Shown here piece by piece: positions 12,289 through 38,833 of a DNA stretch of 64,000 nucleotides. The notes under the pieces were generated by a model that was given only the letters and a program-made list of their open reading frames with translations, ran no database searches and had not been told where the DNA came from. Made by a program: the position numbers and the translations under genes. Every line of letters begins with the position of its first letter. Within the stretch, counting starts at the first letter, position 1. Location: assembly GCA_964532415.1 (NCBI GenBank), contig CAZHHN010000001.1, positions 11,946 through 75,945 on the forward strand. Reading direction: 5' to 3'. Source of the DNA: an uncultured Gammaproteobacteria bacterium. Its GTDB lineage: Bacteria; Patescibacteriota; Patescibacteriia; SG8-24; DYFX01.

Positions 12289-13278
12289 ATGTCCGCTCGT
12301 CGCCGCGCGATCACGATCGGCGTGCTCGGACTGGCCGCGCTGGCCGGGCTGTTCTTCTGGTACCGACGCGACGCTTTCCGGACGGAAGGGCGGCCGGACT
12401 ACGGCGTGACGTTCTCGACGCAGTACGCCAGAAGCCTCGGCCTCGACTGGAAGCAGGCCTTCACCTCCACGCTCGACGACCTGCGCGTCCGCAAGTTCCG
12501 CATTCCGGTCTATTGGGACGACGTCGAAGGGCAAAAAGGAAAAGAAGATTGGTCCGACGTCGACTGGATGCTCGAACAGGCCTCCGCCCGCGGCGCCGAC
12601 GTGATCCTGGCGGTCGGACGCAAGACGCCGCGCTGGCCGGAATGCCACGTGCCGGCCTGGGCGCAGGCCATGTCTGAAGACGCGCAGCGCAGGGAAGTGC
12701 TGCGTTTCCTGCAGGAAGAGATCGACCATTTCAGGGGCGCGCCGGCGGTGAAAGTCTGGCAGGTCGAAAACGAGCCGCTTTTCCATTTCGGCAAATGCCC
12801 GCCGCCCGACCGCGAATTTCTGAAGCGCGAAATCGCGCTGGTGCGCGGAGCGGATCTCCGTCCGATTATGGTCACGGACAGCGGCGAACTCTCGACCTGG
12901 ATCCGGACCGGAACGCTCGGCGACATTCTCGGCATCAGCATGTACCGCCTCGTTTGGAACAGCTATCTCGGCGGGCTCTACTGGCCGGTGTCGCCCATCT
13001 ATTACACCGACCGCATCAACCTGCTCAGCCCGATCATCCGCCGGGTGATCATCAGCGAACTCCAGGCCGAACCGTGGTTCATCAAGGCGCCCGCCGAAAC
13101 TCCGATCTCCGCCCAACTCGATCAGATGAATCCGGCCCGTCTGCGCGGCAACGCCGAATTCGCCGCTTCGACCGGCGCAGGCGAAATCTACCTGTGGGGC
13201 GTCGAATGGTGGTATTGGCTGAAAACGCGCGGTCACGGGGAACTCTGGGAAGCCGCGCGCCCGCTTTATGCGCCCTGA
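12289..13278 (+). CDS. Membrane-anchored glycoside hydrolase, clan GH-A (GH5-like) TIM barrel
   Basis: N-terminal TM (ITIGVLGLAALAGLFFW). WQVENEP carries the clan GH-A catalytic acid/base NEP motif. TGATATG junction with the glycosyltransferase. Confidence 0.6.
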   Translation: MSARRRAITIGVLGLAALAGLFFWYRRDAFRTEGRPDYGVTFSTQYARSLGLDWKQAFTSTLDDLRVRKFRIPVYWDDVEGQKGKEDWSDVDWMLEQASARGADVILAVGRKTPRWPECHVPAWAQAMSEDAQRREVLRFLQEEIDHFRGAPAVKVWQVENEPLFHFGKCPPPDREFLKREIALVRGADLRPIMVTDSGELSTWIRTGTLGDILGISMYRLVWNSYLGGLYWPVSPIYYTDRINLLSPIIRRVIISELQAEPWFIKAPAETPISAQLDQMNPARLRGNAEFAASTGAGEIYLWGVEWWYWLKTRGHGELWEAARPLYAP

Positions 13279-14422
13279 CGTTTTTTCCTTTCTGGTTTCC
13301 GATCGACCGGCGCCAATCGACCGGCGCCATCTTCCGTTCGCCGTTCGCGCCACGGAGATCATTGGCTGGATGTTGACCGCTGTTCTGGCGGCGATCGCGC
13401 TCTGGCTTCCCGAAGCGGGGCTGGCCGCGCATCGCGCCTGGCTTCTGGCGATCGCGGCGATCGGCGCCGGGGCTTGCCTGTGGTGGCGCTCTCGGACGGC
13501 GCGAACGTTCGGAGAGCGGGGAGATCAGGCACATGCGGCGCTCGCTGTGAGCGCGGGCATGGTCGCGTTGCTTACGGTTTTTCTCTATCTGCTGCCGGGC
13601 GCTCCGGGATTCCTCTACGACCTGTATGCGCTGCCCGTCATCGGCGCGGCCGTCGCATTGGACGCGCGCGCCGTGATCGGCGGAGGCGGCGCGGCCCTGT
13701 TCGCGGCGCTCTTCCTGCATATGGCGGAATGGACCTCCGGCCCGTTCTGGTCGGAAGAGATGTTCGTGCGGGGCAGCGCGATCATCTTGGTGACGATCGC
13801 GCTCGCGCTTGTGGCTGAGAGTTGGCGCGCGGCGCATGCCGGAACCGAACGCCTGGCCGAAGAAGTCAACGGCAATCTTGCCGAACTTCGGCTTCTCGCT
13901 TCGCTCGGCGGACAGGTCGAAGCGCTTTCCGACCTCCGTGCCCTGGCTGGGCGCATCGGACTGATCGCTGCCGAGGCCGCCGGCGCGGAACGGCATGCTT
14001 GTTTTTTCAGGGGCGAAGGCGCAGACGCTTTCCGGCCGATGGACAATGCCGGCGGTGCCGATCTGCTCGCGTTCGGACGCATGGACAGCGTGCGTGCCGT
14101 CATGGAGACCGGATTCCCGAGGATCTGGCCGAAGCTTGAAGAGCCGGTGCGGAACCTGCTGGCCGTCCCGCTGCAGGTGCGCGGAGCGCGGATCGGCGTC
14201 CTCTGCCTCGCGAGCCGTCGGAACGGGCGCCATTTCGATCGGGAAGCCGTACGCTCGGCTGAACGCGTGGCCGCGCTTGCGGGCGGCTTGTTCCGCGGCG
14301 CTTTGGACATCGAGCGGGCTCGCCAAGAGCGTCGGGCGGCGGAGCGGCTGGCGGCGCTCGTGGCCGGCCGCGAGGCGACGGGACTTCCGTACGAAGAATT
14401 CCCCGAATCGTCACGTCCATGA
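13268..14422 (+). CDS. Polytopic membrane protein with C-terminal GAF-like domain
   Basis: Several TM helices, then NLLAVPLQVRGARIGVLCLASRRNGRHFDREAVRSAERVAALAG, which resembles a GAF domain core. The stop overlaps the histidine-kinase start (ATGA). The exact start is uncertain (alternative Met at 13370). Confidence 0.55.
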   Translation: MRPDVFSFLVSDRPAPIDRRHLPFAVRATEIIGWMLTAVLAAIALWLPEAGLAAHRAWLLAIAAIGAGACLWWRSRTARTFGERGDQAHAALAVSAGMVALLTVFLYLLPGAPGFLYDLYALPVIGAAVALDARAVIGGGGAALFAALFLHMAEWTSGPFWSEEMFVRGSAIILVTIALALVAESWRAAHAGTERLAEEVNGNLAELRLLASLGGQVEALSDLRALAGRIGLIAAEAAGAERHACFFRGEGADAFRPMDNAGGADLLAFGRMDSVRAVMETGFPRIWPKLEEPVRNLLAVPLQVRGARIGVLCLASRRNGRHFDREAVRSAERVAALAGGLFRGALDIERARQERRAAERLAALVAGREATGLPYEEFPESSRP

Positions 14423-16914
14423 GGCGGCGCATACGGAGCACATGGCTCGAGATCGCCGCCGGTTTCGAGCTGCTGTTCGCGGCCAAACTGGCCTACGATG
14501 TCCGCCCCGTTTTCTCGTCGGGAATCTTCGGTTCTCCGGCGGATCTGTCTTCGCTTGCGCTCCTGCTCGCGGGTTGCGCCGTGTTTTTGCTGCACGCCGT
14601 CCGTCAGCTTCCGACCGCCCGGCGGGCATGTTTCGCCGTGGCCGCGCTTACCAGCCTGCCGTCCGCCTGGTGGTTGGTGCGCAACGGTTGGAACGATGTC
14701 GCCATCCTGCTGATTCTCCTGGGCGTCTGGTTCGCGGCGGCAGCGGCGTTTCGCGCCTGGGATCCGCCGCCGCAGAAGCCGGAGGAACGGTCGATGCAGG
14801 GAATCGCGCTGTATGTCGCCGCGACGCTCGTCGCGGTCGGCATTTCCCGTTTCGCGCACCTTGACGGCAGGGCCGTCGCAGCAGGGCTTGCCTGTGTTGC
14901 CGCCGCCGCGATTCTGGTCTATGCAGAGTACGTCGCCAACCGACGCCTGCGGTTGTATGCGGCGGCGGCTGGGGGCGCGGTCGTGCTGTCTTTGGCGCTG
15001 CGCGCGCTTTCAGACAGCGGCGCGGCCGCCGCGGGCGCGTTTCTTGCCCTGTTTGGCGCGCTGCTCCTTTCCGTGGCGATCCCGTATCTTCCGGAAGCCG
15101 CCGACGAGATGTCGGGCGCGCCGGAACGGCAGCGGGAAATGTGCCTGCACCAGCGCGCCTGCGAAGCGATCCTGTGGGCCGTCATGGCGCTGTCGATCCT
15201 GTACATGAACCGGAGGCAGTCGTTCGACGCACACATGTACTTTTTGGCGTTTTTCTCCGCCGCGCTCGTGACGCAATTCGGTTTTCGCGCGCGGCCCGTC
15301 CGGGCCCTGACCGAGCGCTCGTATCTTTTCGCGCTTTTCGGCATGATCGGCGTTTCGCTGCTGCTCATGGCCGCCACCGGCGGCGCGGGCGGACCGTTCG
15401 TCTATCTCGCCTACCTGTCCGTCTATGCCGGTACGGTGATCGTCGCTCCGTCCTGGTCGATCGTGACGGCCGGCGTCTACGTCGCCTATATCCTGGCGGA
15501 TGCCATCGGAGCCTGGTGGAGAGGCGGCGCGCCGCACGCCTGGGCCGATCTCGCTCCCGGCCTTTCGCAGGCGTCCTTCCTTGCCGCCTCCGTACTGCTC
15601 ATCGGCGGCTACACCGCCTGGACCGGACGGCGCCGCGCCAAACATGCCGAGGCGCTCATGGCGGCCAACCGGCGATTGGCCGAATCGCTCCGCTCGGCCG
15701 TGCGCGAACGCGAGCAATCCGAGCGGCGCTCGATCGAGCAGAAAAAGCTCAACGACGATCTGCTCGAGATGCGTTCCGCGCTCATGAACGTCCTGGAAGA
15801 CGTGCAGGAATCCAAGCGGCAGCTCGAACTTGACCGGCGCCGCGAATTCGCCAGCCTGAACGCGCTCGGTGAGGGCGTCATCGCCACCGCCAAAGACGGC
15901 GCGATCTTCCTGTGCAATCCGGCCGGCGCCGCGCTGCTCGGCCTCGACGCCAAGACCGTCGTCGGTCAGCCTCTCGAACGGACCGTTCGGCTGTTCGAGG
16001 AAAACGGCAGCGTCCTGCAGACCGGGGCATTCGAAACTGCCTTTGCCGGAAAAGCGACGCCGCTGTCCGCCCGGTTGGTGCTGCTGCGGGAGGATGGCAG
16101 GCGCGTTCCGGTCTCCGGCAGCGTCGCTCCGTATTTCGACGAGGAGAACCGTCTGGCCGGCGTCGTGCTGGCTTTCCGAGACGTGACGGTCGAACGGGAG
16201 ATCGACCGTCAGAAGTCGGATTTCATCTCGATCGCCTCACATCAGCTCCGCACGCCGCTTTCGGCGCTCCGTTGGTTCCTTGATCTGCTTCTGGCGGGCG
16301 ATGCCGGCGCGCTCAAGCCCCGGCAGAAGGAATATCTGGAAGACATGTCGGTTTCGACGGTGCGCATGATCAAACTGGTCGGCGACCTGCTCAACATCAC
16401 ACGCATCGAGTCCGGCCGCATCACGCCCAGGCCGCAGCGCGTCGACGTGGCGGCTTTCGCCGGCGATCTTGCGCGCGAGCACGCGCCGCTCTTCAAGAGC
16501 CGCGAAATCCATTTTGCCGTTCAGGTTGACGCGCGGGCGCGCACGATTTACGTCGATCCGGCGCTGGCGCATCAGGCCGTCGCCAATGTACTCTCGAACG
16601 CCGTCAAATATACGCCCAGCGGCGGAAGGGTCGATTTCAGCGTGGGCGTCGACGGGCGCATGGTCGTCTTCAGCGTCAGGGACACCGGCGTCGGCATTCC
16701 TCAGGCGCAGCAATACCGTGTCTACGACAAGTTCTTCCGGGGCGAAAACGTCGTGGCGCAGGAGACGGGAGGCAGCGGCCTTGGATTGTACGTGACGAAG
16801 CTGATCATCGAACTGTCCGGCGGTCAGATCTGGTTCGAATCGAAGGAAGGCCGCGGCACGACCTTTTCGATGGCCTTGCCCACCGCGGTTCCCGAAGGTA
16901 CAATGCCCGCATAA
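14419..16914 (+). CDS. Sensor histidine kinase (multi-TM sensor, PAS, HisKA, HATPase_c)
   Basis: About 10 TM helices. PAS-like block LNALGEGVIATAKDGAIFLCNPAGAALLG. H-box SIASHQLRTPLSAL. G-boxes DTGVGIP and GGSGLGLYVTKLIIELSGG. Confidence 0.9.
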   Translation: MRRRIRSTWLEIAAGFELLFAAKLAYDVRPVFSSGIFGSPADLSSLALLLAGCAVFLLHAVRQLPTARRACFAVAALTSLPSAWWLVRNGWNDVAILLILLGVWFAAAAAFRAWDPPPQKPEERSMQGIALYVAATLVAVGISRFAHLDGRAVAAGLACVAAAAILVYAEYVANRRLRLYAAAAGGAVVLSLALRALSDSGAAAAGAFLALFGALLLSVAIPYLPEAADEMSGAPERQREMCLHQRACEAILWAVMALSILYMNRRQSFDAHMYFLAFFSAALVTQFGFRARPVRALTERSYLFALFGMIGVSLLLMAATGGAGGPFVYLAYLSVYAGTVIVAPSWSIVTAGVYVAYILADAIGAWWRGGAPHAWADLAPGLSQASFLAASVLLIGGYTAWTGRRRAKHAEALMAANRRLAESLRSAVREREQSERRSIEQKKLNDDLLEMRSALMNVLEDVQESKRQLELDRRREFASLNALGEGVIATAKDGAIFLCNPAGAALLGLDAKTVVGQPLERTVRLFEENGSVLQTGAFETAFAGKATPLSARLVLLREDGRRVPVSGSVAPYFDEENRLAGVVLAFRDVTVEREIDRQKSDFISIASHQLRTPLSALRWFLDLLLAGDAGALKPRQKEYLEDMSVSTVRMIKLVGDLLNITRIESGRITPRPQRVDVAAFAGDLAREHAPLFKSREIHFAVQVDARARTIYVDPALAHQAVANVLSNAVKYTPSGGRVDFSVGVDGRMVVFSVRDTGVGIPQAQQYRVYDKFFRGENVVAQETGGSGLGLYVTKLIIELSGGQIWFESKEGRGTTFSMALPTAVPEGTMPA

Positions 16915-16930
16915 GTCCCAGTTTTCTCCC

Positions 16931-17308
16931 ATGGCCAAAACCATCCTGATCGTCGAGGACGAGCAGAGCATGCAGCGGGCGCTGAAAAGCAAGCTGGAAC
17001 ACGCCGGGTATCAGGTGCGGACGGCGAGCGACGGCGAAGAGGCTATGTCCGTGCTCAAAGATTCCTCTCTTCCGGATCTCGTCCTGCTCGACCTGATCAT
17101 GCCCAGGATGGACGGCATCACCGTGCTCCGCCAGATGAAAGCCGACGAGCGGCTGCGCGCGGTGCCGGTCGTGATCCTGACGAATCTGAGCGCGGGCGAC
17201 AAGGTCGCCGAAGCCATGCAGCTCGGCACCTTCGATTTCCTGGTGAAGGCCAATTACTCGCTCGACGACGTGCTGAAAAAGGTCGCCGATCGTCTGGGCC
17301 CGCCTTAG
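16931..17308 (+). CDS. Single-domain response regulator (CheY-like receiver)
   Basis: ILIVEDE...DLVLLDLIMPRMDG...VVILT with the receiver Asp and Lys positions present. No output domain. Confidence 0.9.
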   Translation: MAKTILIVEDEQSMQRALKSKLEHAGYQVRTASDGEEAMSVLKDSSLPDLVLLDLIMPRMDGITVLRQMKADERLRAVPVVILTNLSAGDKVAEAMQLGTFDFLVKANYSLDDVLKKVADRLGPP

Positions 17309-17321
17309 GATCGCGCAGGCT

Positions 17322-17705
17322 ATGGCAAAATCTTCCAAAAAAATTCTGGTCGTCGAAGACGAGACGTTTCTCGTCAAGATTTATGCCGTCAAGCTGAAGA
17401 AAGAAGGCTTCGACGTCAGCATTGCGAGCGACGGGGAAGCGGCCATCCGCATGGCGGCGGCGCTCAGGCCCGACCTGATCCTGCTCGACCTGATCCTGCC
17501 GAAACTGAACGGCTTCGAAGCGCTCGAGAAAATCCGCGCCAACCCCGACAACCGGAAGACGCCCGTGATCGTCCTCTCCAATCTCGGTCAGGAAGAGGAC
17601 GTCAAACGGGCTGAGGCGCTCGGAGCCGACGCCTATCTCGTCAAATCCAATTTTTCGATCCAGGACATCGTCGCCAAGATCCGGGAAACGCTCGGGGAAG
17701 CTTAA
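17322..17705 (+). CDS. Single-domain response regulator (CheY-like receiver), second copy
   Basis: ILVVEDE...DLILLDLILPKLNG...VIVLSNLG. Receiver only. Confidence 0.9.
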   Translation: MAKSSKKILVVEDETFLVKIYAVKLKKEGFDVSIASDGEAAIRMAAALRPDLILLDLILPKLNGFEALEKIRANPDNRKTPVIVLSNLGQEEDVKRAEALGADAYLVKSNFSIQDIVAKIRETLGEA

Positions 17706-17734
17706 GTCCGCGGCCGGCCACAGAAGGAGGAACT

Positions 17735-19435
17735 GTGTCGATACCCAACGAAACACTCAAAAAGGCGCTGGCCGAGTTGGACGTGCTTCCGGCCGACCGG
17801 TTGGAAGCCGCTTTTCAGGGCGCGCAGGAACGCGGCGAGGATCTCGCCGAATATCTGGTCGAACGCAACGCGGTTTCCGACGAAAACATGGGGCGCGTCA
17901 TGGCGGACGTCTACGGGGTGCCGTTCGTGAATCTGCGCAACGAGACGGTCGGGGAGGACGTGCTCGGGCTCCTGCCGGTCGAAATGGTCAAGCGCTCGCG
18001 GGTGTTCCCGTTCCGGAAAGCCGACGGCGCCGTCTGGCTGGCGGTCAACGATCCGGGCGATCTCGAGGCGATCGCGGCCGTGCGGAAAAAAATCGCCGGT
18101 CCGGTCCGTACCTATTTCGCCACCCGCGACGATATCGGCCTGGCCGCCGCCCGCTATCGCCGCGACATCAAAGAAGTCTTCCAGGGGATCATCGCCGCCG
18201 CCGAAAAGCGCCTGAACGAGAAGCCAGACCTGTCGCCCGAAGACGCACTGCGGGAGCTGCCGATCGTCGAGATCGTCGATACCCTGCTGCTCTACGCCTT
18301 CCAGGCCGAAGCCTCCGACCTGCACATCGAGCCGCGCGAAAAAGAAGCCTACGTGCGTTTTCGGATCGACGGCATCATGCACGACATCGTGCGCTACCCG
18401 CGCTACATGCACGAGTTCATCGTCATGCGCCTGAAGATCATGGCGCGTCTGCGCACCGACGAGCATTTCGCCGCGCAGGACGGCAAGATCCGCGAGATCT
18501 TCGAAGGCGATCTGGTCGACCTGCGCGTCAGCATCGTGCCGGTCATCGAAGGCGAAAAGGTCGTGCTGCGTCTTCTGACCGAGCGCGGCCGGCACTTTTA
18601 TCTCGAATCGATCGGCCTCGGCGAAGAAGACGTCGCCAAAATCCGCGCCGCCGTCAAGAAGCCGTACGGCATGCTCCTGGCCGTCGGTCCGACCGGCTCG
18701 GGGAAAACAACGACGCTCTACGCCGTCCTGAAAGTGCTGAACACCAGCGAGGTCAACATCACCACCATCGAGGATCCGATCGAGTACGATATTCCCGGCG
18801 TCAGCCAGATCCAGGTCAACCCGCGGACGGGCATCACCTTCGCGGCCGGGCTCCGCGCGCTGCTCCGGCAGAATCCCGATATCATCATGGTCGGAGAGGT
18901 CCGCGATGAGGAAACCGCCGGCGTGGTCGTCAACTCGGCCATGACTGGCCACTTGGTGCTTTCGACGCTGCACACCAACGACGCCGCCACGACCCTGCCC
19001 CGCCTCCTCGACCTGAAGATCGAGCCGTTCCTGATCGCGTCGTCCGTCAACCTGATCGTCGCTCAGCGCCTGGTGCGCAGGATCTGCCCGCGCTGCGTGC
19101 GCAGTTCGGACGTGGCCGTCGCGGACCTGGAGCGCTACGTTCTGCCGGCCGGCGCCGTCGAACGGCTGCTCGGAAAAAAGAAGCGCGCGACCGTCTACGC
19201 CGGCGCCAAATGCGCGCTCTGCCGCCATACCGGCTACCTCGGGCGCGTCGGCATCTTCGAACTGCTGGAAGTCGGCGATGCCGTCCGCAAGCTGATCATG
19301 GCCCGCGCCAATGCTGACGAGATCGCCCAGGAAGCCGTCCGGCAGGGGATGGTGCCGATGCTGGAAGACGGCATCCGCAAAGTGCTGAACGGCCTCACGA
19401 CGCTCGATGAACTCCAGCGCGTCCTGCGCGATTGA
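17735..19435 (+). CDS. pilB: Type IV pilus assembly ATPase PilB / GspE family
   Basis: N-terminal GSPII_E_N-like region. Walker A GPTGSGKTTTLYA, Asp box, His box and the tetracysteine motif CPRC...CALC. Confidence 0.9.
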   Translation: MSIPNETLKKALAELDVLPADRLEAAFQGAQERGEDLAEYLVERNAVSDENMGRVMADVYGVPFVNLRNETVGEDVLGLLPVEMVKRSRVFPFRKADGAVWLAVNDPGDLEAIAAVRKKIAGPVRTYFATRDDIGLAAARYRRDIKEVFQGIIAAAEKRLNEKPDLSPEDALRELPIVEIVDTLLLYAFQAEASDLHIEPREKEAYVRFRIDGIMHDIVRYPRYMHEFIVMRLKIMARLRTDEHFAAQDGKIREIFEGDLVDLRVSIVPVIEGEKVVLRLLTERGRHFYLESIGLGEEDVAKIRAAVKKPYGMLLAVGPTGSGKTTTLYAVLKVLNTSEVNITTIEDPIEYDIPGVSQIQVNPRTGITFAAGLRALLRQNPDIIMVGEVRDEETAGVVVNSAMTGHLVLSTLHTNDAATTLPRLLDLKIEPFLIASSVNLIVAQRLVRRICPRCVRSSDVAVADLERYVLPAGAVERLLGKKKRATVYAGAKCALCRHTGYLGRVGIFELLEVGDAVRKLIMARANADEIAQEAVRQGMVPMLEDGIRKVLNGLTTLDELQRVLRD

Positions 19436-19440: not shown

Positions 19441-20649
19441 ATGCGTTATCGCTATACCGCCACGACCGCCAAAGGCCGGATGGAATCGGGTTCGATCGAA
19501 GCGCCGTCAGCCGAGGCGGCGGCCGACCAGATTCGCGCTTCGGGGCTGTTGATCGTCTCGCTCCGCCGTGAAGGCGGAGGACTCGGCGGACTCTTTGCGC
19601 GCTTCGAATGGGTCACGCCCGAAACCAAAGTCGCCTTCGCCAAGCACCTGTCGCTCATGATCCGGGCCGGCTTGCCGGTCGACGAAGCCTTGCGCGCGCT
19701 GGTCGACCAGGCGCAGGGACGCTTCCGGCGCGACTTGACCGCGGTGCACAATGCGGTCGAATCCGGCCGTCCGCTTTGGGAAGGCTTCGCCGGGCGGCCC
19801 GGCACATTTTCCGAACTGACCGTGGCCGCCGTGCGCGCGGGCGAGGCGAGCGGCACACTCGGGGAGAACCTCGACGGCCTGGCTCTACAGATGACGAAAA
19901 ATTACGAACTCGTCCGAAAGATCCGCGGCGCCATGCTCTATCCGATCGTGGTGCTGACGGCGGCGCTGGGCGTCGGCATTGGCCTTTCGACGTTCGTATT
20001 GCCGAGAATCATCGAACTGTTCAAATCGATCACCGTCCAGCTGCCGCTCATGACGCGCATCCTGCTGGCTTTCTCGAATTTCATGGTGACCTATGGGACG
20101 CAGGCGCTGCTGTGTGCCCTGGCGGCGGTCGCAGGCCTCATCGTGCTCCTGCGCTCGAAGCCGGTCCGGCCGCTGGCCGACGCGGCGCTTCTCCGGTTTC
20201 CGGTGTTCGGGACGCTCGCCCGAAATTACAGCCTGGCGATGTGCGCCCGGACGATGGCCACGCTTTTGGCCTCCGGCATGCCGATCGGCGACGCGCTCCA
20301 GGTCGCGGCCGATGGCCTGCAGAACCGCTCCTTCCGGACCGCCCTGCTGCGCGTGAAAGCCGGAACCGAACGCGGCATGCCGGCCTCGACGCTGCTTGAA
20401 GACGAGCCGCGGCTTTTCCCCTCGGTGGCTTCCCGGATGATCGCCGTCGGCGAGCGCACCGGCAAGCTTGAAGAGACCTTCGGCTATCTGGCGGAGTTTT
20501 ACGAAGACGAGGTCGATGTCATGACCAAGAACCTCTCGACGCTGCTCGAGCCGCTTCTGCTGCTCGTCATCGGCCTGGTCGTCGCCTTCATCGCCGTTTC
20601 GATCATCTCGCCGATCTACAACTTTATCGGCAATATCCAGCGCCTCTGA
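19441..20649 (+). CDS. pilC: Type IV pilus platform protein PilC / GspF family
   Basis: Two repeated GspF domains with 3-4 TM helices. ATG at 19441 is just after the pilB stop (the ORF-track start at 19432 is TTG). Confidence 0.85.
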   Translation: MRYRYTATTAKGRMESGSIEAPSAEAAADQIRASGLLIVSLRREGGGLGGLFARFEWVTPETKVAFAKHLSLMIRAGLPVDEALRALVDQAQGRFRRDLTAVHNAVESGRPLWEGFAGRPGTFSELTVAAVRAGEASGTLGENLDGLALQMTKNYELVRKIRGAMLYPIVVLTAALGVGIGLSTFVLPRIIELFKSITVQLPLMTRILLAFSNFMVTYGTQALLCALAAVAGLIVLLRSKPVRPLADAALLRFPVFGTLARNYSLAMCARTMATLLASGMPIGDALQVAADGLQNRSFRTALLRVKAGTERGMPASTLLEDEPRLFPSVASRMIAVGERTGKLEETFGYLAEFYEDEVDVMTKNLSTLLEPLLLLVIGLVVAFIAVSIISPIYNFIGNIQRL

Positions 20650-20653: not shown

Positions 20654-21121
20654 ATGCGCCGCGGCTTCACCATCCTCGAACTGCTGCTGACCGTCGGCCT
20701 GCTGTCGCTCACCGCCGCGGCCGTTTTCCTTCCGCTCTCGGCGCTCCAGGGCCGGAGCGGGCTGCAGAGTGGAACGGCCGGACTGCTGAACGTCTTCCGC
20801 CGGGCGCAAGCGCAGGCGCTTGCGGGTTACTTCGCCGATTCGTGGGGCATCCATCTTTCGGACGCGGACGGTTGCGCGCTGCCGGCCTCGCAGTACCATC
20901 TGTTCCGGGGTAGCGCGTTCACCAGCGCGACCGACACGATCGAGACGTTCAGCCTGCCGAATGCCGTAGCGGTGACGGCGCTCGCGATCGGTGGCGGCTG
21001 CGACGTGAAGTTCAGCCGCTACGGAGGATCGACGACGTCGACCGGCACGGTCACGCTGACCGGACCGTACGGCGCGACCACGCTCACCATCAACGGCTAT
21101 GGTCGGATCACGCAACCATAA
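20654..21121 (+). CDS. Pseudopilin / minor pilin with class III (prepilin) signal
   Basis: MRRGFTILELLLTVGLLSL carries the prepilin cleavage/methylation motif G|FTxxE. Confidence 0.8.
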   Translation: MRRGFTILELLLTVGLLSLTAAAVFLPLSALQGRSGLQSGTAGLLNVFRRAQAQALAGYFADSWGIHLSDADGCALPASQYHLFRGSAFTSATDTIETFSLPNAVAVTALAIGGGCDVKFSRYGGSTTSTGTVTLTGPYGATTLTINGYGRITQP

Positions 21122-24100
21122 GCCGGCAGGCGGCCAATCGACGATCGAAGTGCTGATCGCCGTCGGCACTTTCGCGCTGCTCGCGGCCGGACTGCTTCAG
21201 CTGGTTGCCAGCCCCCTGACGCTCGCCGGAGATTCGGCCAACCGTTTCAAAGCGTCAACCTTCGCCGACCAGGGCGTCGAGGCGGCGCGCGCCGTGAAGG
21301 AATCCGGCTGGACCCACCTCTCGACCGGCACGCACGGGCTGGCACGCTCCGGCGGCACCTGGTCGTTCAGCGGCTTTTCGGACGTGCCCGATACCGGCTT
21401 CGTGCGGTCGGTCGTCGTGGCGGACGTGGCGCGCGACGTGGGCGGCGCGATCGTGACGGGCGGCGGCACCGTCGATCCGCGCACGAAGAGCGTCACCGTC
21501 ACCGTCAGCTGGACCTTCGGCGTGGTCGCTTTGCCGCGCAGCGTCACCCGCTCCGTCTATCTCACCGACTGGAACGTCTACGATTGGACGCAGACGACCG
21601 ACGCCGACTTCTCGGCCGGCAGCAGGAGCGGCCTGACGATTTCCGGCACCGGGAGCGCTGCTCAGGTCGAACTCTCGCCGGCCAATAAAAGCTGGACATC
21701 CGGCGGCGGAACGCTCGTGGTGCATACGACCGACGCCGACTGGAACGGCGGCTCCTACGGCACCAACACGCAGGAAACCGGGACCGGCAGCACCGCTTCG
21801 GTGACCGAGCTCGGCGCATCGGCCTGGAGCGGCGTCAGCCAGGCCAAAACCTGGAACGAAACGACCGACACGGATTTCTCCGACGGCACCTTTTCGCAGA
21901 CGGCGGTCGTGGATACCGGCGACCTGGCCGGCGTCGGGTTGAACACGCAAATCGACTGGGCACCGCAGACCAGCCCCACCACCAATGACATGTACACGCT
22001 CGGAGCCGTGAGCGCCAACGACGTCTGGGCGGTCGGCAGCGCCGGAACGATCGCACATTGGAACGGCTCCGCCTGGAGCGCCGTCAGCAGTCCGACATCC
22101 CAGGGGTTGCACGACGTCGACTGCCTGACCGCGGCCAACTGCTGGGCGGTGGCCGATGCCGGACAGATCATCCGCTGGAATGGCACGAGCTGGACGAATT
22201 TCGTCGACACGGGCGCCGAAGTCTACAACGGCGTGACGATGACGTCGACAACGGACGGCTGGGCAGTGGCCGGCGGCACGAGCGGCACGGCCCGCGGCCG
22301 CATTTTCCGTTGGAACGGCACGGCTTGGTCGCAATTCGTCGACCTCGGCAGCCAGAATCTCAGTTCGATCGACTGCACCGGCACGTCGGACTGCTGGGCT
22401 TCGGCCGATTCCGGGCAGATCTTCCATTGGAACGGCACGGCCTGGTCGCAATTCGTCGACACCGGATCGGAGACCTGGAATGACCTGAATATGGTTTCGC
22501 CGACCGATGGCTGGATCGTCGGCGAAGGCGGCGCCATGCGGCGTTTCAATGGCACCAGCTGGAACACCGTCTCAAGCGGAGTCACCGGTTCCCTGGGCGA
22601 TGTCGAATGCGTTTCTTCCACCTACTGCCTGGTCGTCAGCGACGGCACGCCCCGGGTCTGGAACGGCACGGGCTGGTCGGCGATGAGCTTCGTGTCGGGC
22701 GTGACGCTCTACGGCCTGGCGGTCATTTCGTCGGGGAGTTCCTTCGGCATCGGCGCCGGCGGTGCCTTCGTCAATTACGGTACGCATTATTTCCCGAACG
22801 GAACGTACCTCTCCGGCATTTTCGATGCGGGCTCCGCGCAAACCTGGGGCACCGCCAGTTGGGACGCGGTGCTGGTTTCGGCGACGGGAGTGACGATCGC
22901 CACCCGGAGCGCTTCGACGCCGGCCGGTATCGGCTCGGCGGCCTGGAGCGCGGAGATGGCCGTTTCCGGTTCGGCGATCACGAGCGCCGCCAATCGTTAT
23001 CTCCAATACCGCATCACCCTGGCGACCCCGAATCGGAGCGCGACGCCGCGCCTGAACGCGATCACGATCAGCTACGCGGCGCCGGCGGTCGCCGATTACG
23101 AAGATCTCTACATGGCGGCCGACAACGACGGCTGGAGCTTCGGCAGCGGCGGCGCGATCGCGCGCTGGGACGGGACGGGCTGGAGCAAATTTTCTTCGCC
23201 GACGGTGAATCTGCTCGAGGCGGCGGCCGGGACGGCCTCGACCGACGTCTGGGCGATGGGCGCATCCGGGACGATCGTGCACTGGAACGGGACGGCTTGG
23301 TCGGTGATCGTGAGCGGCACCGCGCAGGCGCTGCACGGCGCGGCTTGTCTGACCTCGGGCAATTGCCGGACCGTCGGCGCTTCGGGAACGATCCTGCGCT
23401 GGAATGGCACGGCCTGGTCGGCCGAGGCCGATCCTTCAACGCAGGGTCTTGAAGCCGTCGGCTATACGGCGGCCAACGACGTTTGGGCCGTCGGCGGTAC
23501 CGACATCGTCCGTTTCAATGGCGCTTCATGGTCGGTCCATACGACGGTGGCCGGCGCCGCCTTTCACGGTCTTTGGATGGTCTCGGCCACTGACGGCTGG
23601 ACCGTCGGAGGCGGCGGTGCGATCCGGCGGTGGAACGGCACGGCTTGGTCAACGGTGACCAGCCCGACGACGAATGCGCTTCGGGATGTCCACTGCGCGA
23701 GCGCGTCGGACTGCTGGGCGGTCGGCGACGCCGGGACGATCATCCATTGGAACGGCACGGCTTGGTCGACGGCGGCCAGTCCGACCGGGCAGGCGATCGA
23801 AGCGGTCTTCATGAGTGGCGGGACGCACGGCTGGGCGGTCGCTCACGCCACGACCTTCCTGGAATACCGTACGGTCTATCCGGGCGGGGCGGCCTGGACC
23901 AGCCCGATCATCGACGGCGGCGCTGCCGGCACGACCTGGAACAGCGTGGCCTGGGATCAATCGCTGCCGCTCGGCACCGGCATCACGATCGCCAGCCGCT
24001 CGGGGCCGAATCCAACCTGCTGTACCGGCTGGTCTTCGTACAGCGCGGAGTACGCGTCGCCGGGCGGCTCTCCGGTCACGAGCCCGGCCAACCGTTATTT

Positions 24101-25280
24101 CCAGTATCGGACCACATTTACGACCGCCAACACCGTCTCGACCGGCGTTCTGCAGGAAGTGCGGATCCTGCGCGGCGCCGCAACCGCTCAGCCGCTCTAC
24201 GGCATTCAGGGCACGGCGGCGAGCGACGTCTGGGCCGTCGGCGAAGCCGGCACGATCCTGCGGTATGACGGTGCATCGTGGTCGGCGACCAACAGTCCGG
24301 TCACGACCGTGCTGCACGGCCTGGATGCGCTGACGTCGGCAAACGCGATCGCCGTCGGATACGGAGGCGTGATCCTGAAGATGAATGGTTCCGCCTGGAG
24401 CGCGATGAGCAGTCCGACCAACGAAGAGCTGTATGCGGTCGATCTGTTGGACGCGACGCATGGTTGGGCGGTCGGCACGGGCGGAGCGATCGTCAGTTAT
24501 AACGGGACGACGTGGTCGACGATCGCCAGCGGCACGGGCAGTCCGCTCTACGGCGTCTCGATGGTTTCCGCTTCGAACGGGTTCGCCGTCGGCGGCGGCG
24601 GCACCATCCGCAGATGGAACGGCACGAGCTGGTCGACGTCGGCGAGTCCGACTATCGACAATCTGAACGACGTATTCTGCCTGAATGCGTCGCTCTGCTG
24701 GGCGGTGGGGGACAACGGGCGCATCCTCAGTTGGAACGGCACGGTCTGGTCAGTGACGACGAGTCCGGTCGCGTCGCGGCTCAATGCCGTCGAAGCGCGC
24801 TCCGGCGGCGAAGTCTGGGCGGTCGGCGACTTCGGCACGATCCTGAAGTACGATGGCGTCTCCTGGGCCAGCTACGTTTCGCCGACGACGCGCGATCTGT
24901 ATTCCGTGGCCGTGTCGGCTCCGACCGACGGCTGGATCAGCGGGAATGCGGGGGAGTTGATCAAAGATCCGATCGCCTACGTCGGAACGGGCACGCTCTT
25001 CTCTTCGGTGCTCGACACCGACAGCGCCACTTCCACGTTTCAGACGGCCTTTTGGAATGCGATCACTCCGGCCAACACGGCGCTGCGCGTCTCGGCCCGG
25101 AACGGCAATACGTCTTCGCCCGACGGCAGCTGGTCGGGCTGGGGGCCGTATTTTTCCTCCGCCACCGGTTCGCCGATCGCCCTGCCGTCGGCGCGCTACC
25201 TTCAGTATCAGCTGACGCTTTCGACCAGCGACACGTCGATGACGCCATCCGTGCAGGACCTCACCATGACCTATGAATGA
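21099..25280 (+). CDS. Giant (1393 aa) pilin-like protein: prepilin-type N-terminus followed by three modules of WNGTxWS beta-propeller-like repeats
   Basis: N-terminus GGQSTIEVLIAVGTFALLAAGLL is a prepilin-like signal with a hydrophobic helix. There are >20 copies of a ~40-aa unit [GTI.(H/R)WNGT.WS...SPT...L..V.C.....CWAVGD.G]. Each of the three blocks ends with a conserved NRYLQYR(I/T)T..T segment. Confidence 0.7.
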   Translation: MVGSRNHKPAGGQSTIEVLIAVGTFALLAAGLLQLVASPLTLAGDSANRFKASTFADQGVEAARAVKESGWTHLSTGTHGLARSGGTWSFSGFSDVPDTGFVRSVVVADVARDVGGAIVTGGGTVDPRTKSVTVTVSWTFGVVALPRSVTRSVYLTDWNVYDWTQTTDADFSAGSRSGLTISGTGSAAQVELSPANKSWTSGGGTLVVHTTDADWNGGSYGTNTQETGTGSTASVTELGASAWSGVSQAKTWNETTDTDFSDGTFSQTAVVDTGDLAGVGLNTQIDWAPQTSPTTNDMYTLGAVSANDVWAVGSAGTIAHWNGSAWSAVSSPTSQGLHDVDCLTAANCWAVADAGQIIRWNGTSWTNFVDTGAEVYNGVTMTSTTDGWAVAGGTSGTARGRIFRWNGTAWSQFVDLGSQNLSSIDCTGTSDCWASADSGQIFHWNGTAWSQFVDTGSETWNDLNMVSPTDGWIVGEGGAMRRFNGTSWNTVSSGVTGSLGDVECVSSTYCLVVSDGTPRVWNGTGWSAMSFVSGVTLYGLAVISSGSSFGIGAGGAFVNYGTHYFPNGTYLSGIFDAGSAQTWGTASWDAVLVSATGVTIATRSASTPAGIGSAAWSAEMAVSGSAITSAANRYLQYRITLATPNRSATPRLNAITISYAAPAVADYEDLYMAADNDGWSFGSGGAIARWDGTGWSKFSSPTVNLLEAAAGTASTDVWAMGASGTIVHWNGTAWSVIVSGTAQALHGAACLTSGNCRTVGASGTILRWNGTAWSAEADPSTQGLEAVGYTAANDVWAVGGTDIVRFNGASWSVHTTVAGAAFHGLWMVSATDGWTVGGGGAIRRWNGTAWSTVTSPTTNALRDVHCASASDCWAVGDAGTIIHWNGTAWSTAASPTGQAIEAVFMSGGTHGWAVAHATTFLEYRTVYPGGAAWTSPIIDGGAAGTTWNSVAWDQSLPLGTGITIASRSGPNPTCCTGWSSYSAEYASPGGSPVTSPANRYFQYRTTFTTANTVSTGVLQEVRILRGAATAQPLYGIQGTAASDVWAVGEAGTILRYDGASWSATNSPVTTVLHGLDALTSANAIAVGYGGVILKMNGSAWSAMSSPTNEELYAVDLLDATHGWAVGTGGAIVSYNGTTWSTIASGTGSPLYGVSMVSASNGFAVGGGGTIRRWNGTSWSTSASPTIDNLNDVFCLNASLCWAVGDNGRILSWNGTVWSVTTSPVASRLNAVEARSGGEVWAVGDFGTILKYDGVSWASYVSPTTRDLYSVAVSAPTDGWISGNAGELIKDPIAYVGTGTLFSSVLDTDSATSTFQTAFWNAITPANTALRVSARNGNTSSPDGSWSGWGPYFSSATGSPIALPSARYLQYQLTLSTSDTSMTPSVQDLTMTYE

Positions 25281-25794
25281 TCCGCACCGAACGCGACCCG
25301 GTTTCACGCTCGTCGACTTCATCCTGTATTTCGGGCTGATCGGTCTCTTTCTGACGGGCGTCATCGCCTTCGCGGTCGACTACACCAAGAGCTACAATAA
25401 GGCGCTCATCATTTCCCGCGTCGGGCAGGAGAGCCGTTTCGGGCTTCAGCGCATTCTGCGGACGGTTCGGCAGGCGGCCAAAATCAACGCCGCCTCGGTC
25501 TTTGACGATGATATGGGCACGCTCGCGCTCGACACGGTTGCAACCTCGACCACGCCGACCGTTTTCGACGTGTCCGGAGGCGCGCTGCGGATCAGGGAAG
25601 GCTCCGCCACCGCGACGCCGCTTACCTCCGGCGAGGTGGTCGTGCAGAAATTGCGCTTCAGCAAAGACGCGCCGATCGGCAACACGACCGCCGTCACGGT
25701 CGAGCTGACGGTGTCCTATGTGGGTCCTTTTGCCGACAAGCTGCTCTCTTACAGCCTTTCCGCCAGCGGCACGGCCGTGGTGCGCCGGGATTGA
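25273..25794 (+). CDS. Pseudopilin / minor pilin
   Basis: RPGFTLVDFILYFGLIGLFLTGVIAF is a prepilin-type N-terminus. ATGA overlap with the preceding gene. Confidence 0.75.
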   Translation: MNDPHRTRPGFTLVDFILYFGLIGLFLTGVIAFAVDYTKSYNKALIISRVGQESRFGLQRILRTVRQAAKINAASVFDDDMGTLALDTVATSTTPTVFDVSGGALRIREGSATATPLTSGEVVVQKLRFSKDAPIGNTTAVTVELTVSYVGPFADKLLSYSLSASGTAVVRRD

Positions 25795-25795
25795 T

Positions 25796-26200
25796 ATGCG
25801 CCATCCCCCCAAGGGTTTCATCGCGATGGTCACGGTCCTGGTGCTGATGGCGGTGCTCCTGGCCGCCGGATTGGTCGGGGCGGCGATCGGACGCGACGAG
25901 CTGCTGCTCTCCGGTATCGTGGAAGACGGCAACCAGGCGTTTTCCGTCGCCGATGGCTGCCTCGAAGACGCCGTCAATCGCTTCAAACAAAACGGCGGCT
26001 ACGCCGGCGGCAGTTATGCGCTCTCCGGCGGAAGCTGCGTGGTGACGGTCGTCAATCCCGGCGGCAACACCCGGCTGGTGTCGGCCACGGCGACCTACGC
26101 CAACAACAGCCGCGCCATCGATGCCAACGTCACGCTGAAATTCAACGCGGCGGGCAACGCCAAAACCGTCATCGTCAATTCGTGGCTGGAATCCAATTGA
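25796..26200 (+). CDS. Small minor pilin (PilX-like N-terminus)
   Basis: KGFIAMVTVLVLMAVLLAAGLVGA is a pilin-like hydrophobic N-terminus. TGATATG junction. Confidence 0.6.
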   Translation: MRHPPKGFIAMVTVLVLMAVLLAAGLVGAAIGRDELLLSGIVEDGNQAFSVADGCLEDAVNRFKQNGGYAGGSYALSGGSCVVTVVNPGGNTRLVSATATYANNSRAIDANVTLKFNAAGNAKTVIVNSWLESN

Positions 26201-36237: not shown

Positions 36238-36579
36238 ATGGAAATCAGTCGCTCAACGAAGAAGCTGTCATTGTGGACCGTGCTTCTCGGTGTATTGCCA
36301 TTTGTGATTTATGCCGTTGAACGTGCCCTTGGGAAACTGCCGTCTGCAACTGATTGGTACAAGGGCGGTACCAATCATGGTCCTTGGCGATGGGAGCTCG
36401 AAGGTTTCACGATACTTTATCCAGTTATGATTCTGGCGGTGATAACTGCTATCAAGTCGATTGCCGAAGGGCAGGAAAGAAAAAAGTGGCAACCAGTTCT
36501 GATCGGTGGGGGGCTGATCGTGCTTCAAGCCGTCATCCTGTATGCCCAGTTAGTGGTACTTAATTGGACGGTGAATTGA
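36238..36579 (+). CDS. Small 3-TM membrane protein, putative immunity protein for the RHS C-terminal toxin
   Basis: Starts 1 nt after the RHS stop (TAGTATG). Three hydrophobic helices. Low GC like the toxin tip. Confidence 0.5.
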   Translation: MEISRSTKKLSLWTVLLGVLPFVIYAVERALGKLPSATDWYKGGTNHGPWRWELEGFTILYPVMILAVITAIKSIAEGQERKKWQPVLIGGGLIVLQAVILYAQLVVLNWTVN

Positions 36580-36598
36580 ATCACCAACGAGCCTACCT

Positions 36599-38794: not shown

Positions 38795-38833
38795 TGGCTG
38801 GCATCATGGGACGCAGCTCGAGCTTTAAGATGA

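What the first reader, a model, noticed from the sequence alone, without database searches (positions are those of the whole stretch)
13268..19435. GAF membrane sensor, multi-TM PAS histidine kinase and two stand-alone CheY-like receivers sit directly upstream of pilB-pilC
These four regulatory genes are tightly linked (ATGA overlap between the GAF protein and the kinase, ~15-30 bp spacers otherwise) and read into pilB. Two output-less receivers next to a pilus ATPase recall the PilG/PilH pair of the Pil-Chp system, but no CheA/CheW/MCP genes are present. Instead a classical HisKA kinase with ~10 TM helices is the only kinase. This looks like a streamlined sensory module controlling pilus extension.
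Basis: inference. Interest (0 to 1): 0.55.

Follow-up and report, generated by a model that had tools for sequence, protein, structure and literature searches.

The report
Two-component switch wired to a pilus motor
In an ultra-small "candidate phyla radiation" (CPR, Patescibacteria) bacterium, a membrane sensor, a sensor kinase and two tiny signal-receiver proteins sit in one gene string with the pilus motor; a receiver of this type sits in front of that motor gene in most CPR relatives sampled, which makes it the best current candidate for how these bacteria control their pili.

Summary
On the + strand, with a 4-bp overlap and 13-29-nt spacers, lie a 6TM-GAF protein (13268-14422), an 831-aa PAS-HisKA-HATPase kinase (14419-16914), two stand-alone receivers (16931-17308, 17322-17705), pilB, pilC and a complete secretin-less type IV pilus cluster running to 29492. 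No CheA, CheW, MCP, PilT or PilD gene was found in the window.

New findings:
- The organism is a high-GC Patescibacteria (CPR) bacterium.
- Of 44 PilB-anchored loci with at least 3 kb of upstream sequence, 37 have a same-strand stand-alone receiver within 3 kb upstream of pilB. That is about 30 times the receiver density elsewhere in those loci.
- The exact GAF-kinase-RR-RR-pilB array recurs even where the GAF protein is only about 26-35% identical.
- These receivers show no affinity to PilG, PilH or CheY. They share their own signature: the canonical K-P is missing, one residue is inserted, and RR2-type members carry SNLGQ.
- The GAF protein is a kinase-less sensor. Its six-helix membrane domain borders on Pfam 6TM_PilS and is probably repeated inside the kinase.

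Best reading: a classical two-component module whose receivers act post-translationally on the pilus machine, most likely on PilB. That step is inferred. I class it as a new variant of a known kind.

The parts
13268..14422 (+). Kinase-less membrane sensor: six TM helices (PilS/DUF4118-like), a signalling helix, a GAF domain and a conserved C-terminal helix
   Evidence: Pfam GAF and GAF_2. Six hydrophobic segments. The family is small, about 15-17 full-length clusters at 50% identity, 373-389 aa. Of 15 members, 4 hit PF25323 6TM_PilS (best 27.0 bits, equal to the cut-off) and 3 hit DUF4118. AlphaFold model pLDDT 79; Foldseek finds the GAF fold.
14419..16914 (+). Sensor histidine kinase: about 14 hydrophobic segments (8 + 6), a coiled coil, PAS, HisKA (H608) and HATPase_c
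   Evidence: Pfam. The cytoplasmic part resembles WalK, PnpS and PhoR but scores below their cut-offs. H, N, G1, F and G2 box residues are invariant in alignment A2. Residues 243-396 align to the GAF protein's 6TM domain: hhalign probability 84%, E 8e-6; in a TM-only rerun the real pair scores 37.4 against at most 20.7 for reversed or shuffled controls.
16931..17308 (+). RR1: stand-alone receiver (kinase-proximal type), D54/T84/K106, KANYS in place of K-P
   Evidence: It is 72-83% identical in the five loci that carry the GAF gene.
17322..17705 (+). RR2: stand-alone receiver (pilB-proximal type, seen in most sampled CPR lineages), D56/S86/K108, SNLGQEED and KSNFS
17735..19435 (+). PilB extension ATPase (MshEN N-domain, Walker A at 318, tetra-Cys 451/454/493/496)
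   Evidence: Its nearest relatives are Patescibacteria.
19441..20649 (+). PilC platform protein. The ORF opens at TTG 19432; the ATG at 19441 is the start used by the automatic call.
20654..21121 (+). Minor pilin-like protein (prepilin motif G|FTILE)
21099..25280 (+). Giant 1393-aa pilin-like protein (N-terminus G|QSTIE followed by a TM segment). I read it as a candidate tip adhesin; that role is an inference.
   Evidence: Conserved in L007 and L008.
25273..25794 (+). 173-aa pilin-like membrane protein (G|FTLVD)
25796..26200 (+). 134-aa single-TM pilus cluster protein (the ORF reads 25718-26200 if taken from its first ATG)
26228..28312 (+). PilM (actin-like ATPase) fused to a TM segment and a C-terminal extension
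   Evidence: PilM_2 E 5e-37. TIGR01175 scores above its cut-off. TM segment at 381-403.
28376..28942 (+). Pilin (A|FTLIE, N_methyl)
28962..29492 (+). Pilin (G|FTLIE, N_methyl)

Best explanation
This is the regulatory head of a type IV pilus operon in a high-GC Patescibacteria (CPR) bacterium.

A classical HisKA kinase with a large membrane sensor domain most likely phosphorylates two output-less receivers, RR1 and RR2. RR2 belongs to a CPR-specific receiver family encoded in front of pilB, or of the pilins that precede pilB, in most sampled CPR lineages. It has no DNA-binding or enzymatic domain, so it most likely works by phosphorylation-dependent binding to the pilus machine, and PilB is the most probable target. 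This would gate pilus assembly used for attachment, twitching or DNA uptake. RR1, the kinase-proximal paralogue, most likely serves as a second output or as a phosphate sink that sharpens the response.

The 6TM-GAF protein is a sensor half without a kinase. It is translationally coupled to the kinase and probably modulates it through membrane or helix contacts. Its membrane domain, and a probable second copy inside the kinase, resemble the six-helix domain with which PilS senses membrane pilin, so pilin inventory is a plausible input.

Shown here: gene content, intact catalytic and phospho-acceptor residues, conservation of the linkage, the family signature, and the fold of the GAF protein.

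Inferred: phosphotransfer to both receivers, the target (PilB), the sign of regulation, the role of RR1, and the nature of the signal.
For: Gene content and junctions.

Organism:
- All but a few of the 80 best PilB relatives come from records labelled Patescibacteria or one of its lineages.
- The nearest named RR2 homologues are from Patescibacteria or Parcubacteria.
- The cluster lacks a secretin.

Linkage:
- 37 of 44 PilB-anchored loci with at least 3 kb of upstream sequence carry a same-strand receiver within 3 kb upstream. Receiver density is 3.56 per 10 kb there against 0.12 per 10 kb elsewhere in the loci.
- The layouts seen are HK-RR2-pilB, HK-RR1-RR2-pilB and RR2-pilins-pilB.
- Starting from the receiver instead, 2 of 3 RR2 homologues at 56-58% identity are directly followed by pilB-pilC.
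- Starting from the GAF protein, 3 of 3 contigs long enough to judge show GAF-HK(828-851 aa)-RR-RR-pilB; in the third the contig ends inside a 349-residue gene fragment at the pilB position that matches PilB (61% over 349 residues).
- Patescibacteria are reported to have only about 5 two-component systems per genome (PMC7137472), so chance adjacency is unlikely.

Selection: inside the lineage that carries the GAF gene, RR1 and RR2 are at least as conserved as PilB and far more than the kinase or GAF protein. RR1 is 72-83% and RR2 73-84% identical, against PilB 61-77%, kinase 36-53% and GAF protein 26-35%.

Competence of the parts: H608 and the N, G1, F and G2 boxes are invariant. D54/D56, T84/S86 and K106/K108 are present.

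Precedent for the mechanism:
- In Xanthomonas the single-domain receiver EmvR, fed by the classical kinase ColS, binds PilB and represses its ATPase (PMC11973254).
- DrdR binds PilB and PilT (PMC13507683).

PilS-like input. PilS uses its six TM segments to bind PilA (PMC6058289).
Against: - There is no direct evidence for phosphotransfer or for any receiver-PilB contact. Complexes could not be modelled with the tools available.
- L089 has a kinase and three receivers of this family with no pilB within 7 kb, so the family is not used exclusively at pilus loci.
- 7 of 44 evaluable pilB loci have no receiver within the 3-kb window. Two of these (L031, L035) have one just outside it.
- The 6TM_PilS link is borderline. 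Only 4 of 15 family members hit it, the best exactly at the cut-off, and neither the window protein itself nor any kinase hits it directly.
- In relatives a soluble PAS-kinase precedes the GAF gene and may be its true partner. That kinase is missing from the window.
- The promoter and terminator scans are uninformative.
Confidence: 0.6

Rival explanations
1. Phosphorelay or transcriptional route. The stand-alone receivers are intermediates or sinks that pass phosphate, through an unlinked Hpt protein or kinase, to a DNA-binding regulator elsewhere. The module would then set transcription of the pilus operon rather than acting on the machine.
For: The receivers have no output domain. Single-domain receivers such as Spo0F work this way (general knowledge). 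RR1's best matches among solved structures are PleD and Spo0F-type receivers. L089 shows the family away from pilB.
Against: No Hpt protein or DNA-binding response regulator is encoded in the window or in the surveyed loci next to the module. CPR genomes carry very few two-component proteins (PMC7137472). The receiver stays next to pilB or the pilins even where no kinase is nearby, as expected for a component of the machine.
Confidence: 0.17
2. General envelope or cell-wall two-component system of the WalK/PhoR type that lies next to the pilus genes only because the genome is compact. It would have no specific role in pilus control.
For: The kinase's cytoplasmic part scores best against the WalK, PnpS and PhoR models. 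In the window and in L090 the genes upstream of the module encode a phosphodiesterase, a DUF6938 protein and a glycosidase-like protein.
Against: All those NCBIfam scores are far below the family cut-offs (230 against 725 bits for WalK). There is no OmpR-type DNA-binding partner. The receiver-pilB adjacency holds across CPR lineages whose other flanking genes differ; in L087, for example, the flank is ribosomal S6-SSB-S18.
Confidence: 0.1
3. A reduced Pil-Chp system. RR1 and RR2 would be orthologues of PilG and PilH that lost their CheA-type kinase and acquired a HisKA kinase.
For: Two CheY-like single-domain receivers sit next to pilus genes, as in pilGH. PilH is 36% identical to RR1 over 103 residues. 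The bootstrap trees do not firmly exclude a link: PilG, PilH or CheY joined a window receiver in a group of 15 or fewer taxa in 23 of 120 replicates.
Against: No CheA, CheW or MCP gene was found. Chemotaxis genes are nearly absent from Patescibacteria (PMC7137472). Both receivers are closer to the HisKA-cognate receiver RR468, and RR2 is also closer to the CPR receivers (median 43%), than to PilG or PilH (22-30% identity). RR1's median identity to the CPR receivers (35%) is only slightly above its identity to PilH (30%). Both share a K-P loss plus a one-residue insertion with the CPR family, and PilG, PilH and CheY lack it.
Confidence: 0.03

Closest known systems
ColS-ColR/EmvR 'one-to-two' system of Xanthomonas oryzae (PMC11973254) and DrdR of X. 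campestris (PMC13507683)
   Same: A classical HisKA kinase feeds an output-less receiver that acts post-translationally on the pilus motor PilB. This is the mechanism proposed here.
   Different: EmvR is an orphan gene in a diderm proteobacterium, and its kinase also has a DNA-binding partner. Here the receivers are encoded inside the pilus operon of a monoderm-like CPR bacterium, there are two of them, no DNA-binding partner is present, and they have their own sequence signature. Homology to EmvR was not tested because no sequence was at hand.
PilG/PilH of the Pil-Chp chemosensory system (Pseudomonas aeruginosa)
   Same: A pair of single-domain CheY-like receivers dedicated to type IV pilus function, with one plausibly an output and the other an antagonist or sink.
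   Different: PilG and PilH are fed by the CheA-type kinase ChpA together with CheW and MCP proteins, none of which was found here. There is no specific sequence affinity. The CPR receivers also lack the canonical K-P.
PilS-PilR two-component system
   Same: A pilus-linked HisKA kinase with a multi-helix membrane domain followed by PAS-DHp-CA. Pfam's 6TM_PilS model touches the family of the adjacent GAF protein, and that domain is probably repeated in the kinase. PilS senses membrane pilin (PMC6058289).
   Different: There is no NtrC-type PilR. The output is two stand-alone receivers. The kinase has eight extra hydrophobic segments. The PilS-like domain also occurs on a separate kinase-less GAF protein. 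The Pfam evidence is borderline.
PleC/DivJ-DivK/PleD of Caulobacter
   Same: HisKA kinases phosphorylate a single-domain receiver together with a second receiver protein. Membrane pilin is reported to signal to PleC (PMC7196804). RR1's best solved-structure match is the PleD receiver.
   Different: PleD carries a diguanylate cyclase output and the system drives the cell cycle. No GGDEF domain was found in the window, and the PilB N-domain lacks the MshEN c-di-GMP-binding motif.
KdpD-type TM(DUF4118)-GAF sensor module
   Same: A membrane helical bundle (weak DUF4118 hits in 3 of 15 family members) followed directly by a GAF domain and a long signalling helix.
   Different: The protein stops after the helix and has no DHp or catalytic domain. 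It is encoded as a separate gene overlapping a kinase gene.

Membership tests
Classical two-component system (HisKA kinase + REC receivers) | HisKA domain with a phospho-acceptor His, plus HATPase_c with N, G1, F and G2 boxes | tested here: met
   Pfam HisKA 59.5 bits and HATPase_c 92.4 bits. H608, N723/N727, D755/G757/G759, F772 and G785/G787/G789 are invariant in the six-sequence alignment A2.
Classical two-component system (HisKA kinase + REC receivers) | Receiver domain with acidic pocket, phospho-acceptor Asp, Thr/Ser and Lys | tested here: met
   RR1 has E9-D10, D54, T84, K106. RR2 has E12-D13, D56, S86, K108. The usual Pro after the Lys is absent.
Classical two-component system (HisKA kinase + REC receivers) | Phosphotransfer from this kinase to these receivers | not testable with these tools
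   This needs in-vitro phosphotransfer profiling.
Pil-Chp PilG/PilH | Encoded with, and fed by, a CheA-type kinase (ChpA), CheW-like PilI and the MCP PilJ | tested here: not met
   No CheA, CheW or MCP domain was found in any Pfam-scanned ORF of the window. The adjacent kinase is HisKA-type.
Pil-Chp PilG/PilH | Sequence grouping with PilG or PilH rather than with other receivers | tested here: inconclusive
   Identity to PilG or PilH is 22-30% over the trimmed receiver alignment (25-36% in BLASTP local alignments), against 31-39% to RR468 and a median of 35-43% to the CPR receivers. The NJ tree puts the references outside, but with only about 30% bootstrap support. The shared K-P loss and insertion argue against membership. 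The reference sequences were verified as exact database entries.
Pil-Chp PilG/PilH | Single-domain CheY-like receivers genetically linked to type IV pilus genes | tested here: met
PilS-PilR | Six-TM PilS-type membrane domain (Pfam PF25323) | tested here: inconclusive
   The kinase has no direct hit. The adjacent GAF-protein family hits in 4 of 15 members, the best at 27.0 bits, equal to the cut-off. hhalign links that domain to kinase residues 243-396 with probability 84%, and the controls are clean.
PilS-PilR | Cognate NtrC-type regulator PilR (REC, sigma-54 AAA+ and HTH domains) | tested here: not met
   No such protein is encoded in the window. Both receivers are 125-127 aa with a REC domain only.
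Type IV pilus assembly system (T4aP-like, monoderm/CPR type) | PilB-type ATPase, PilC platform, PilM, and pilins with a class III signal sequence | tested here: met
   PilB has T2SSE at 398.8 bits plus MshEN, Walker A and tetra-Cys. PilC has two T2SSF domains. PilM scores above the TIGR01175 cut-off. Pilins carry G|FT(L/I)(I/L)E N-termini. No secretin, PilT or PilD gene was found in the window.
GAF-domain sensors | GAF fold | tested here: met
   Pfam GAF and GAF_2 score above cut-off. All 15 family members hit GAF. The AlphaFold model (pLDDT 79) matches PDE2A/PDE6, Nlh1 and DosS GAF structures, E 8e-6 to 1e-3. The ligand is unknown.

The most novel reading that the evidence does not exclude
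Across the Candidate Phyla Radiation, type IV pili are governed by a dedicated and so far undescribed stand-alone receiver family (SNLGQ motif, K-P lost) that docks on the PilB motor and is fed by interchangeable HisKA kinases. In this lineage the input would come from PilS-like six-helix membrane modules, one inside the kinase and one on a split, kinase-less GAF protein. These modules would read the membrane pilin pool and give a purely post-translational pilin-feedback loop in organisms that lack PilR and sigma-54.
Probability: 0.25. Interest if true: 0.75.

Novelty: new variant of a known kind. Interest (0 to 1): 0.55.

Why it matters
Type IV pili are the organelle by which the cultivated CPR bacteria, such as Saccharibacteria, find, bind and move on their hosts. 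A recent study of those pili states that the regulation of extension and retraction in Patescibacteria is an open question (bioRxiv 10.1101/2024.11.25.624915). These genomes keep only a handful of two-component proteins (PMC7137472). Finding one receiver family placed in front of pilB in most sampled CPR lineages therefore names a concrete, testable regulator: a 125-130-aa protein that can be deleted or point-mutated in the genetically tractable Saccharibacteria. It also offers a minimal model of how a classical kinase can steer a pilus motor without chemotaxis proteins or transcription factors.

Tried and rejected
- Word-indexed homology searches with the kinase N-terminus (residues 1-462) and with the GAF protein found only one relative and the query itself, respectively. 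The Ala/Leu-rich membrane sequences defeat the word index. The exhaustive HMMER search then recovered the GAF family.
- A single-sequence AlphaFold run of the GAF protein was useless (pLDDT 50). It was repeated with a 15-sequence alignment.
- Direct BLASTP between the GAF protein and the kinase showed nothing. Only the profile-profile comparison did. I checked that result against reversed and block-shuffled controls.
I do not rest the argument on it.
- Promoter and terminator scans are at chance level.
- No Rfam element lies in the region; only tRNAs were found elsewhere in the window.
- A c-di-GMP route through the PilB MshEN domain was considered and set aside, because the binding motif is absent and no GGDEF, EAL or PilZ gene was found.
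- Five literature searches for a described receiver-pilB link in CPR, Saccharibacteria or Parcubacteria found nothing, and nothing turned up in the full text of the two Saccharibacteria pilus papers that were checked.

Full report
**What is in the sequence.** Between 13268 and 29492 every gene is on the + strand.

- 6TM-GAF protein: 13268-14422, 384 aa.
- Histidine kinase: 14419-16914, 831 aa.
- Two receivers: 16931-17308 (RR1, 125 aa) and 17322-17705 (RR2, 127 aa).
- pilB: 17735-19435.
- pilC: to 20649.
- Four pilin-like genes, one of them a 1393-aa giant.
- A PilM fusion: 26228-28312.
- Two classical pilins: 28376-28942 and 28962-29492.

These calls rest. The GAF and kinase genes overlap by ATGA. 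The other junctions are 16, 13 and 29 nt, and pilB has an AAGGAGG ribosome-binding site. The kinase has PAS, HisKA and HATPase_c domains. Both receivers are a Response_reg domain only, with the acidic pocket, phospho-acceptor Asp (D54, D56), T84/S86 and K106/K108 in place. Pfam scans of the remaining candidate ORFs of the 64 kb (picked by length and third-position GC) found no CheA, CheW, MCP, PilT, PilD or secretin gene. Promoter and terminator consensus scans are at chance level and say nothing either way.

**Whose genome.** The 80 best PilB relatives in the species-level genome collection are almost all from records labelled Patescibacteria, Saccharibacteria, Parcubacteria or other CPR lineages. 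The top two are 77% and 72% identical, and the rest are at most 52%. The nearest named RR2 homologues are likewise from Patescibacteria or Parcubacteria. The window's own genes occur in Logan assemblies of runs SRR8931231-44. The secretin-less cluster with a giant pilin fits a cell without an outer membrane. A GC content of 60-67% is unusually high for this group.

**Is the arrangement conserved?** I called ORFs in the 80 PilB-anchored loci and searched them with the window's proteins.

- Of 44 loci with at least 3 kb upstream of pilB, 37 have a same-strand stand-alone receiver within 3 kb, 6 have two or more receivers, and 20 have a HisKA kinase within 6.5 kb.
- Receiver ORFs occur at 3.56 per 10 kb in that upstream window, against 0.12 per 10 kb in the rest of the loci.
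- Three layouts recur: kinase-RR2-pilB; kinase-RR1-RR2-pilB; and RR2-(one to four pilins)-pilB. The third is common in Paceibacteria- and Saccharibacteria-labelled records.
- Where two receivers are present, the kinase-proximal one usually scores better against RR1 and the pilB-proximal one against RR2.

Two independent samplings agree. Of three RR2 homologues at 56-58% identity on long contigs, two are followed directly by pilB-pilC. The third belongs to a kinase-plus-three-receiver cluster with no pilB within 7 kb. Four members of the GAF-protein family at 23-28% identity to the window protein all sit with a 4-bp overlap in front of a large following gene; it is an 828-851-aa kinase in the three contigs where the gene is complete, and there it is followed by a 124-aa receiver and a roughly 130-aa receiver. 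The next gene is pilB in L090 and L092; in L094 the contig ends inside a 349-residue gene fragment at that position that matches PilB (61% over 349 residues). In L090 even the upstream phosphodiesterase, DUF6938 and glycosidase-like genes are syntenic with the window. Patescibacteria are reported to carry only about 5 two-component systems and fewer than one chemotaxis gene per genome (PMC7137472), so this linkage is far beyond chance.

**What kind of receivers?** I verified my PilG, PilH, CheY, DivK and RR468 reference sequences as exact database entries.

- RR1 and RR2 are 39% identical to each other.
- They are 34-39% identical to the HisKA-cognate stand-alone receiver RR468 of Thermotoga.
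- They are 25-36% identical to PilG, PilH and CheY.
- Their best matches among solved structures are PleD (for RR1) and RR468, RpaA and PhoP (for RR2).
- All NCBIfam matches fall far below the family cut-offs.

A neighbour-joining tree puts the five references outside the CPR receivers. Bootstrap support for that split is only about 30%, and RR1's position is unstable, so the phylogeny is inconclusive on its own.

More telling is a shared signature. All five references have the canonical K-P after strand beta5. The CPR receivers have K-(A/S/T) plus a one-residue insertion (KANYS in RR1, KSNFS in RR2). RR2-type proteins also carry SNLGQ(E/D)xD after beta4, conserved in at least 80% of the 63 RR2-type sequences. 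Within the lineage that has the GAF gene, the two receivers are at least as conserved as PilB and far more than the kinase or the GAF protein: RR1 72-83% and RR2 73-84% identical, against 61-77% for PilB, 36-53% for the kinase and 26-35% for the GAF protein. The PilG/PilH comparison is thus an analogy, not a homology.

**The kinase and the GAF protein.** Across CPR the pil-linked kinases keep a PAS-HisKA-HATPase core but swap inputs. The inputs seen are multi-TM (here), dCache (L009, L089), HAMP (L046, L088), several PAS domains (L071), or none at all in kinases of about 250 aa. The window's membrane domain has homologues only in close relatives.

The GAF protein defines a small family: about 15-17 full-length clusters at 50% identity among 1.8 billion representatives, each 373-389 aa. 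The family shows six TM helices, a conserved linker (LSxRLDQxQ), a GAF domain and a conserved C-terminal helix (ERxxAERMxKLLVGRELKMRELK). With this alignment AlphaFold gives pLDDT 79. TM6 runs on as a long helix into a GAF fold and then into a 45-residue helix, which is the layout of a sensor kinase cut off before its DHp domain. Foldseek confirms the GAF fold.

Four of the 15 members hit Pfam PF25323, the PilS-like transmembrane domain. The best hit is 27.0 bits, exactly at the cut-off, covering model positions 8-175 of 189. Three members hit DUF4118, the KdpD membrane domain. NCBIfam adds only weak KdpD and RegB hits.

A profile-profile comparison aligns the GAF protein's TM domain (residues 13-172) with kinase residues 243-396, the six membrane-proximal hydrophobic segments, at probability 84% and E 8e-6. 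Both share an E-x-x-x-W motif at the first helix. In a TM-only rerun the real pair scores 37.4, while reversed and 30 block-shuffled controls reach at most 20.7. The kinases themselves do not hit PF25323. I therefore treat "PilS-like" as a lead and not as an assignment.

In L007, L008, L090 and L094 a soluble 380-aa PAS-HisKA-HATPase gene immediately precedes the GAF gene. The window and its Logan twins lack that gene.

**How it most likely works.**

Shown:
- A kinase with all catalytic residues intact.
- Two receivers with all phospho-acceptor residues intact and no output domain.
- A kinase-less sensor.
- A tight, widely conserved genetic link to pilB.

Inferred:
- The kinase phosphorylates RR1 and RR2.
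- RR2, and possibly RR1, binds a component of the pilus machine, most probably PilB, in a phosphorylation-dependent way and so gates pilus assembly.
- RR1 serves as a second output or a phosphate sink.
- The 6TM-GAF protein tunes the kinase.
- The PilS-like membrane modules may read the membrane pilin pool.

There is experimental precedent for a classical kinase feeding a single-domain receiver that binds PilB and alters its ATPase: EmvR with ColS (PMC11973254) and DrdR (PMC13507683). PilS binds PilA through its six TM segments (PMC6058289), and membrane pilin signals to the HisKA kinase PleC in Caulobacter (PMC7196804). A c-di-GMP route is unlikely, because the PilB N-domain lacks the MshEN binding motif and no GGDEF, EAL or PilZ gene was found.

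The rivals are listed with their weights in the rival-explanations section. They are a phosphorelay to an unlinked transcription factor, a general WalK-like envelope system adjacent by chance, and a degenerate Pil-Chp system. The second and third are contradicted by the comparative data.

**Novelty.** Five searches of the held literature found no description of a receiver or two-component module linked to pilB in CPR bacteria, and nothing turned up in the full text of the two Saccharibacteria pilus papers that were checked. The most detailed study of Saccharibacteria pili lists regulation of extension and retraction as an open question. Control of type IV pili by single-domain receivers is a known principle. 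The new elements are the CPR-specific receiver family with its own signature, its position inside the pilus operon across most sampled CPR lineages, the interchangeable HisKA inputs, and the split PilS-like 6TM-GAF sensor. I class this as a new variant of a known kind, with interest 0.55.

Noticed in passing
window 30195-36236 (+): A 2013-aa SpvB/TcdB/FG-GAP/RHS-repeat protein whose C-terminus is an SLT / Tse3-like muramidase domain. It lies just downstream of the pilus cluster. It may be a polymorphic toxin that attacks the cell wall, which would be notable in an episymbiotic CPR bacterium.
   Followed up: no
window 36200-38800: A low-GC island (0.50 against about 0.62) with a Schlafen/AlbA_2 gene (36956-38149) and a PIN_3 gene (38168-38794). 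It sits between the RHS toxin gene and tRNA-Pro (39077-39151) and looks like an acquired defence or mobile islet.
   Followed up: partly
window 21099-25280 (+): A giant 1393-aa pilin-like protein with a prepilin-type N-terminus (G|QSTIE) and a weak CBM_5_12 signal. It is conserved in L007 (68% identity) and L008 (46%). I read it as a candidate tip adhesin.
   Followed up: partly
L007 4395-5534; L008 1193-2335; L090 6850-7992; L094 375-1517: In relatives a soluble 380-aa PAS-HisKA-HATPase kinase gene directly precedes the 6TM-GAF gene; in L007 and L094 the two overlap by 4 bp. The window and its Logan twins L001-L005 lack it. It may be the GAF protein's original kinase partner.
   Followed up: partly
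window 16931-17705 and receivers in L007-L094: This receiver family lacks the canonical Lys-Pro after beta5 and has a one-residue insertion there. RR2-type members carry an SNLGQ(E/D)xD motif after beta4. Both changes lie on the alpha4-beta5-alpha5 output face.
   Followed up: yes
L088 9107-9496; L089 6193-7381: Two variants of the module. L088 has a second receiver gene between pilB and pilC. L089 has a dCache kinase followed by three receivers of the same family with no pilB within 7 kb.
   Followed up: no
window 57950-60502 (+) and 44657-46114 (+): An 850-aa protein ending in a Peptidase_S74 (endosialidase chaperone) domain, and a eukaryotic-type Ser/Thr protein kinase downstream of the PBP2 and Mur ligase genes.
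   Followed up: no
window, whole: GC content of 60-67% is unusually high for Patescibacteria, the group indicated by the PilB and RR2 relatives.
   Followed up: no
L031 3236-4612; L087 1-778: Reverse-transcriptase (RVT_1-like) reading frames lie just upstream of, or near, the receiver-pilB module in two CPR loci. In L031 the frame is open into the receiver gene when read stop to stop.
   Followed up: no
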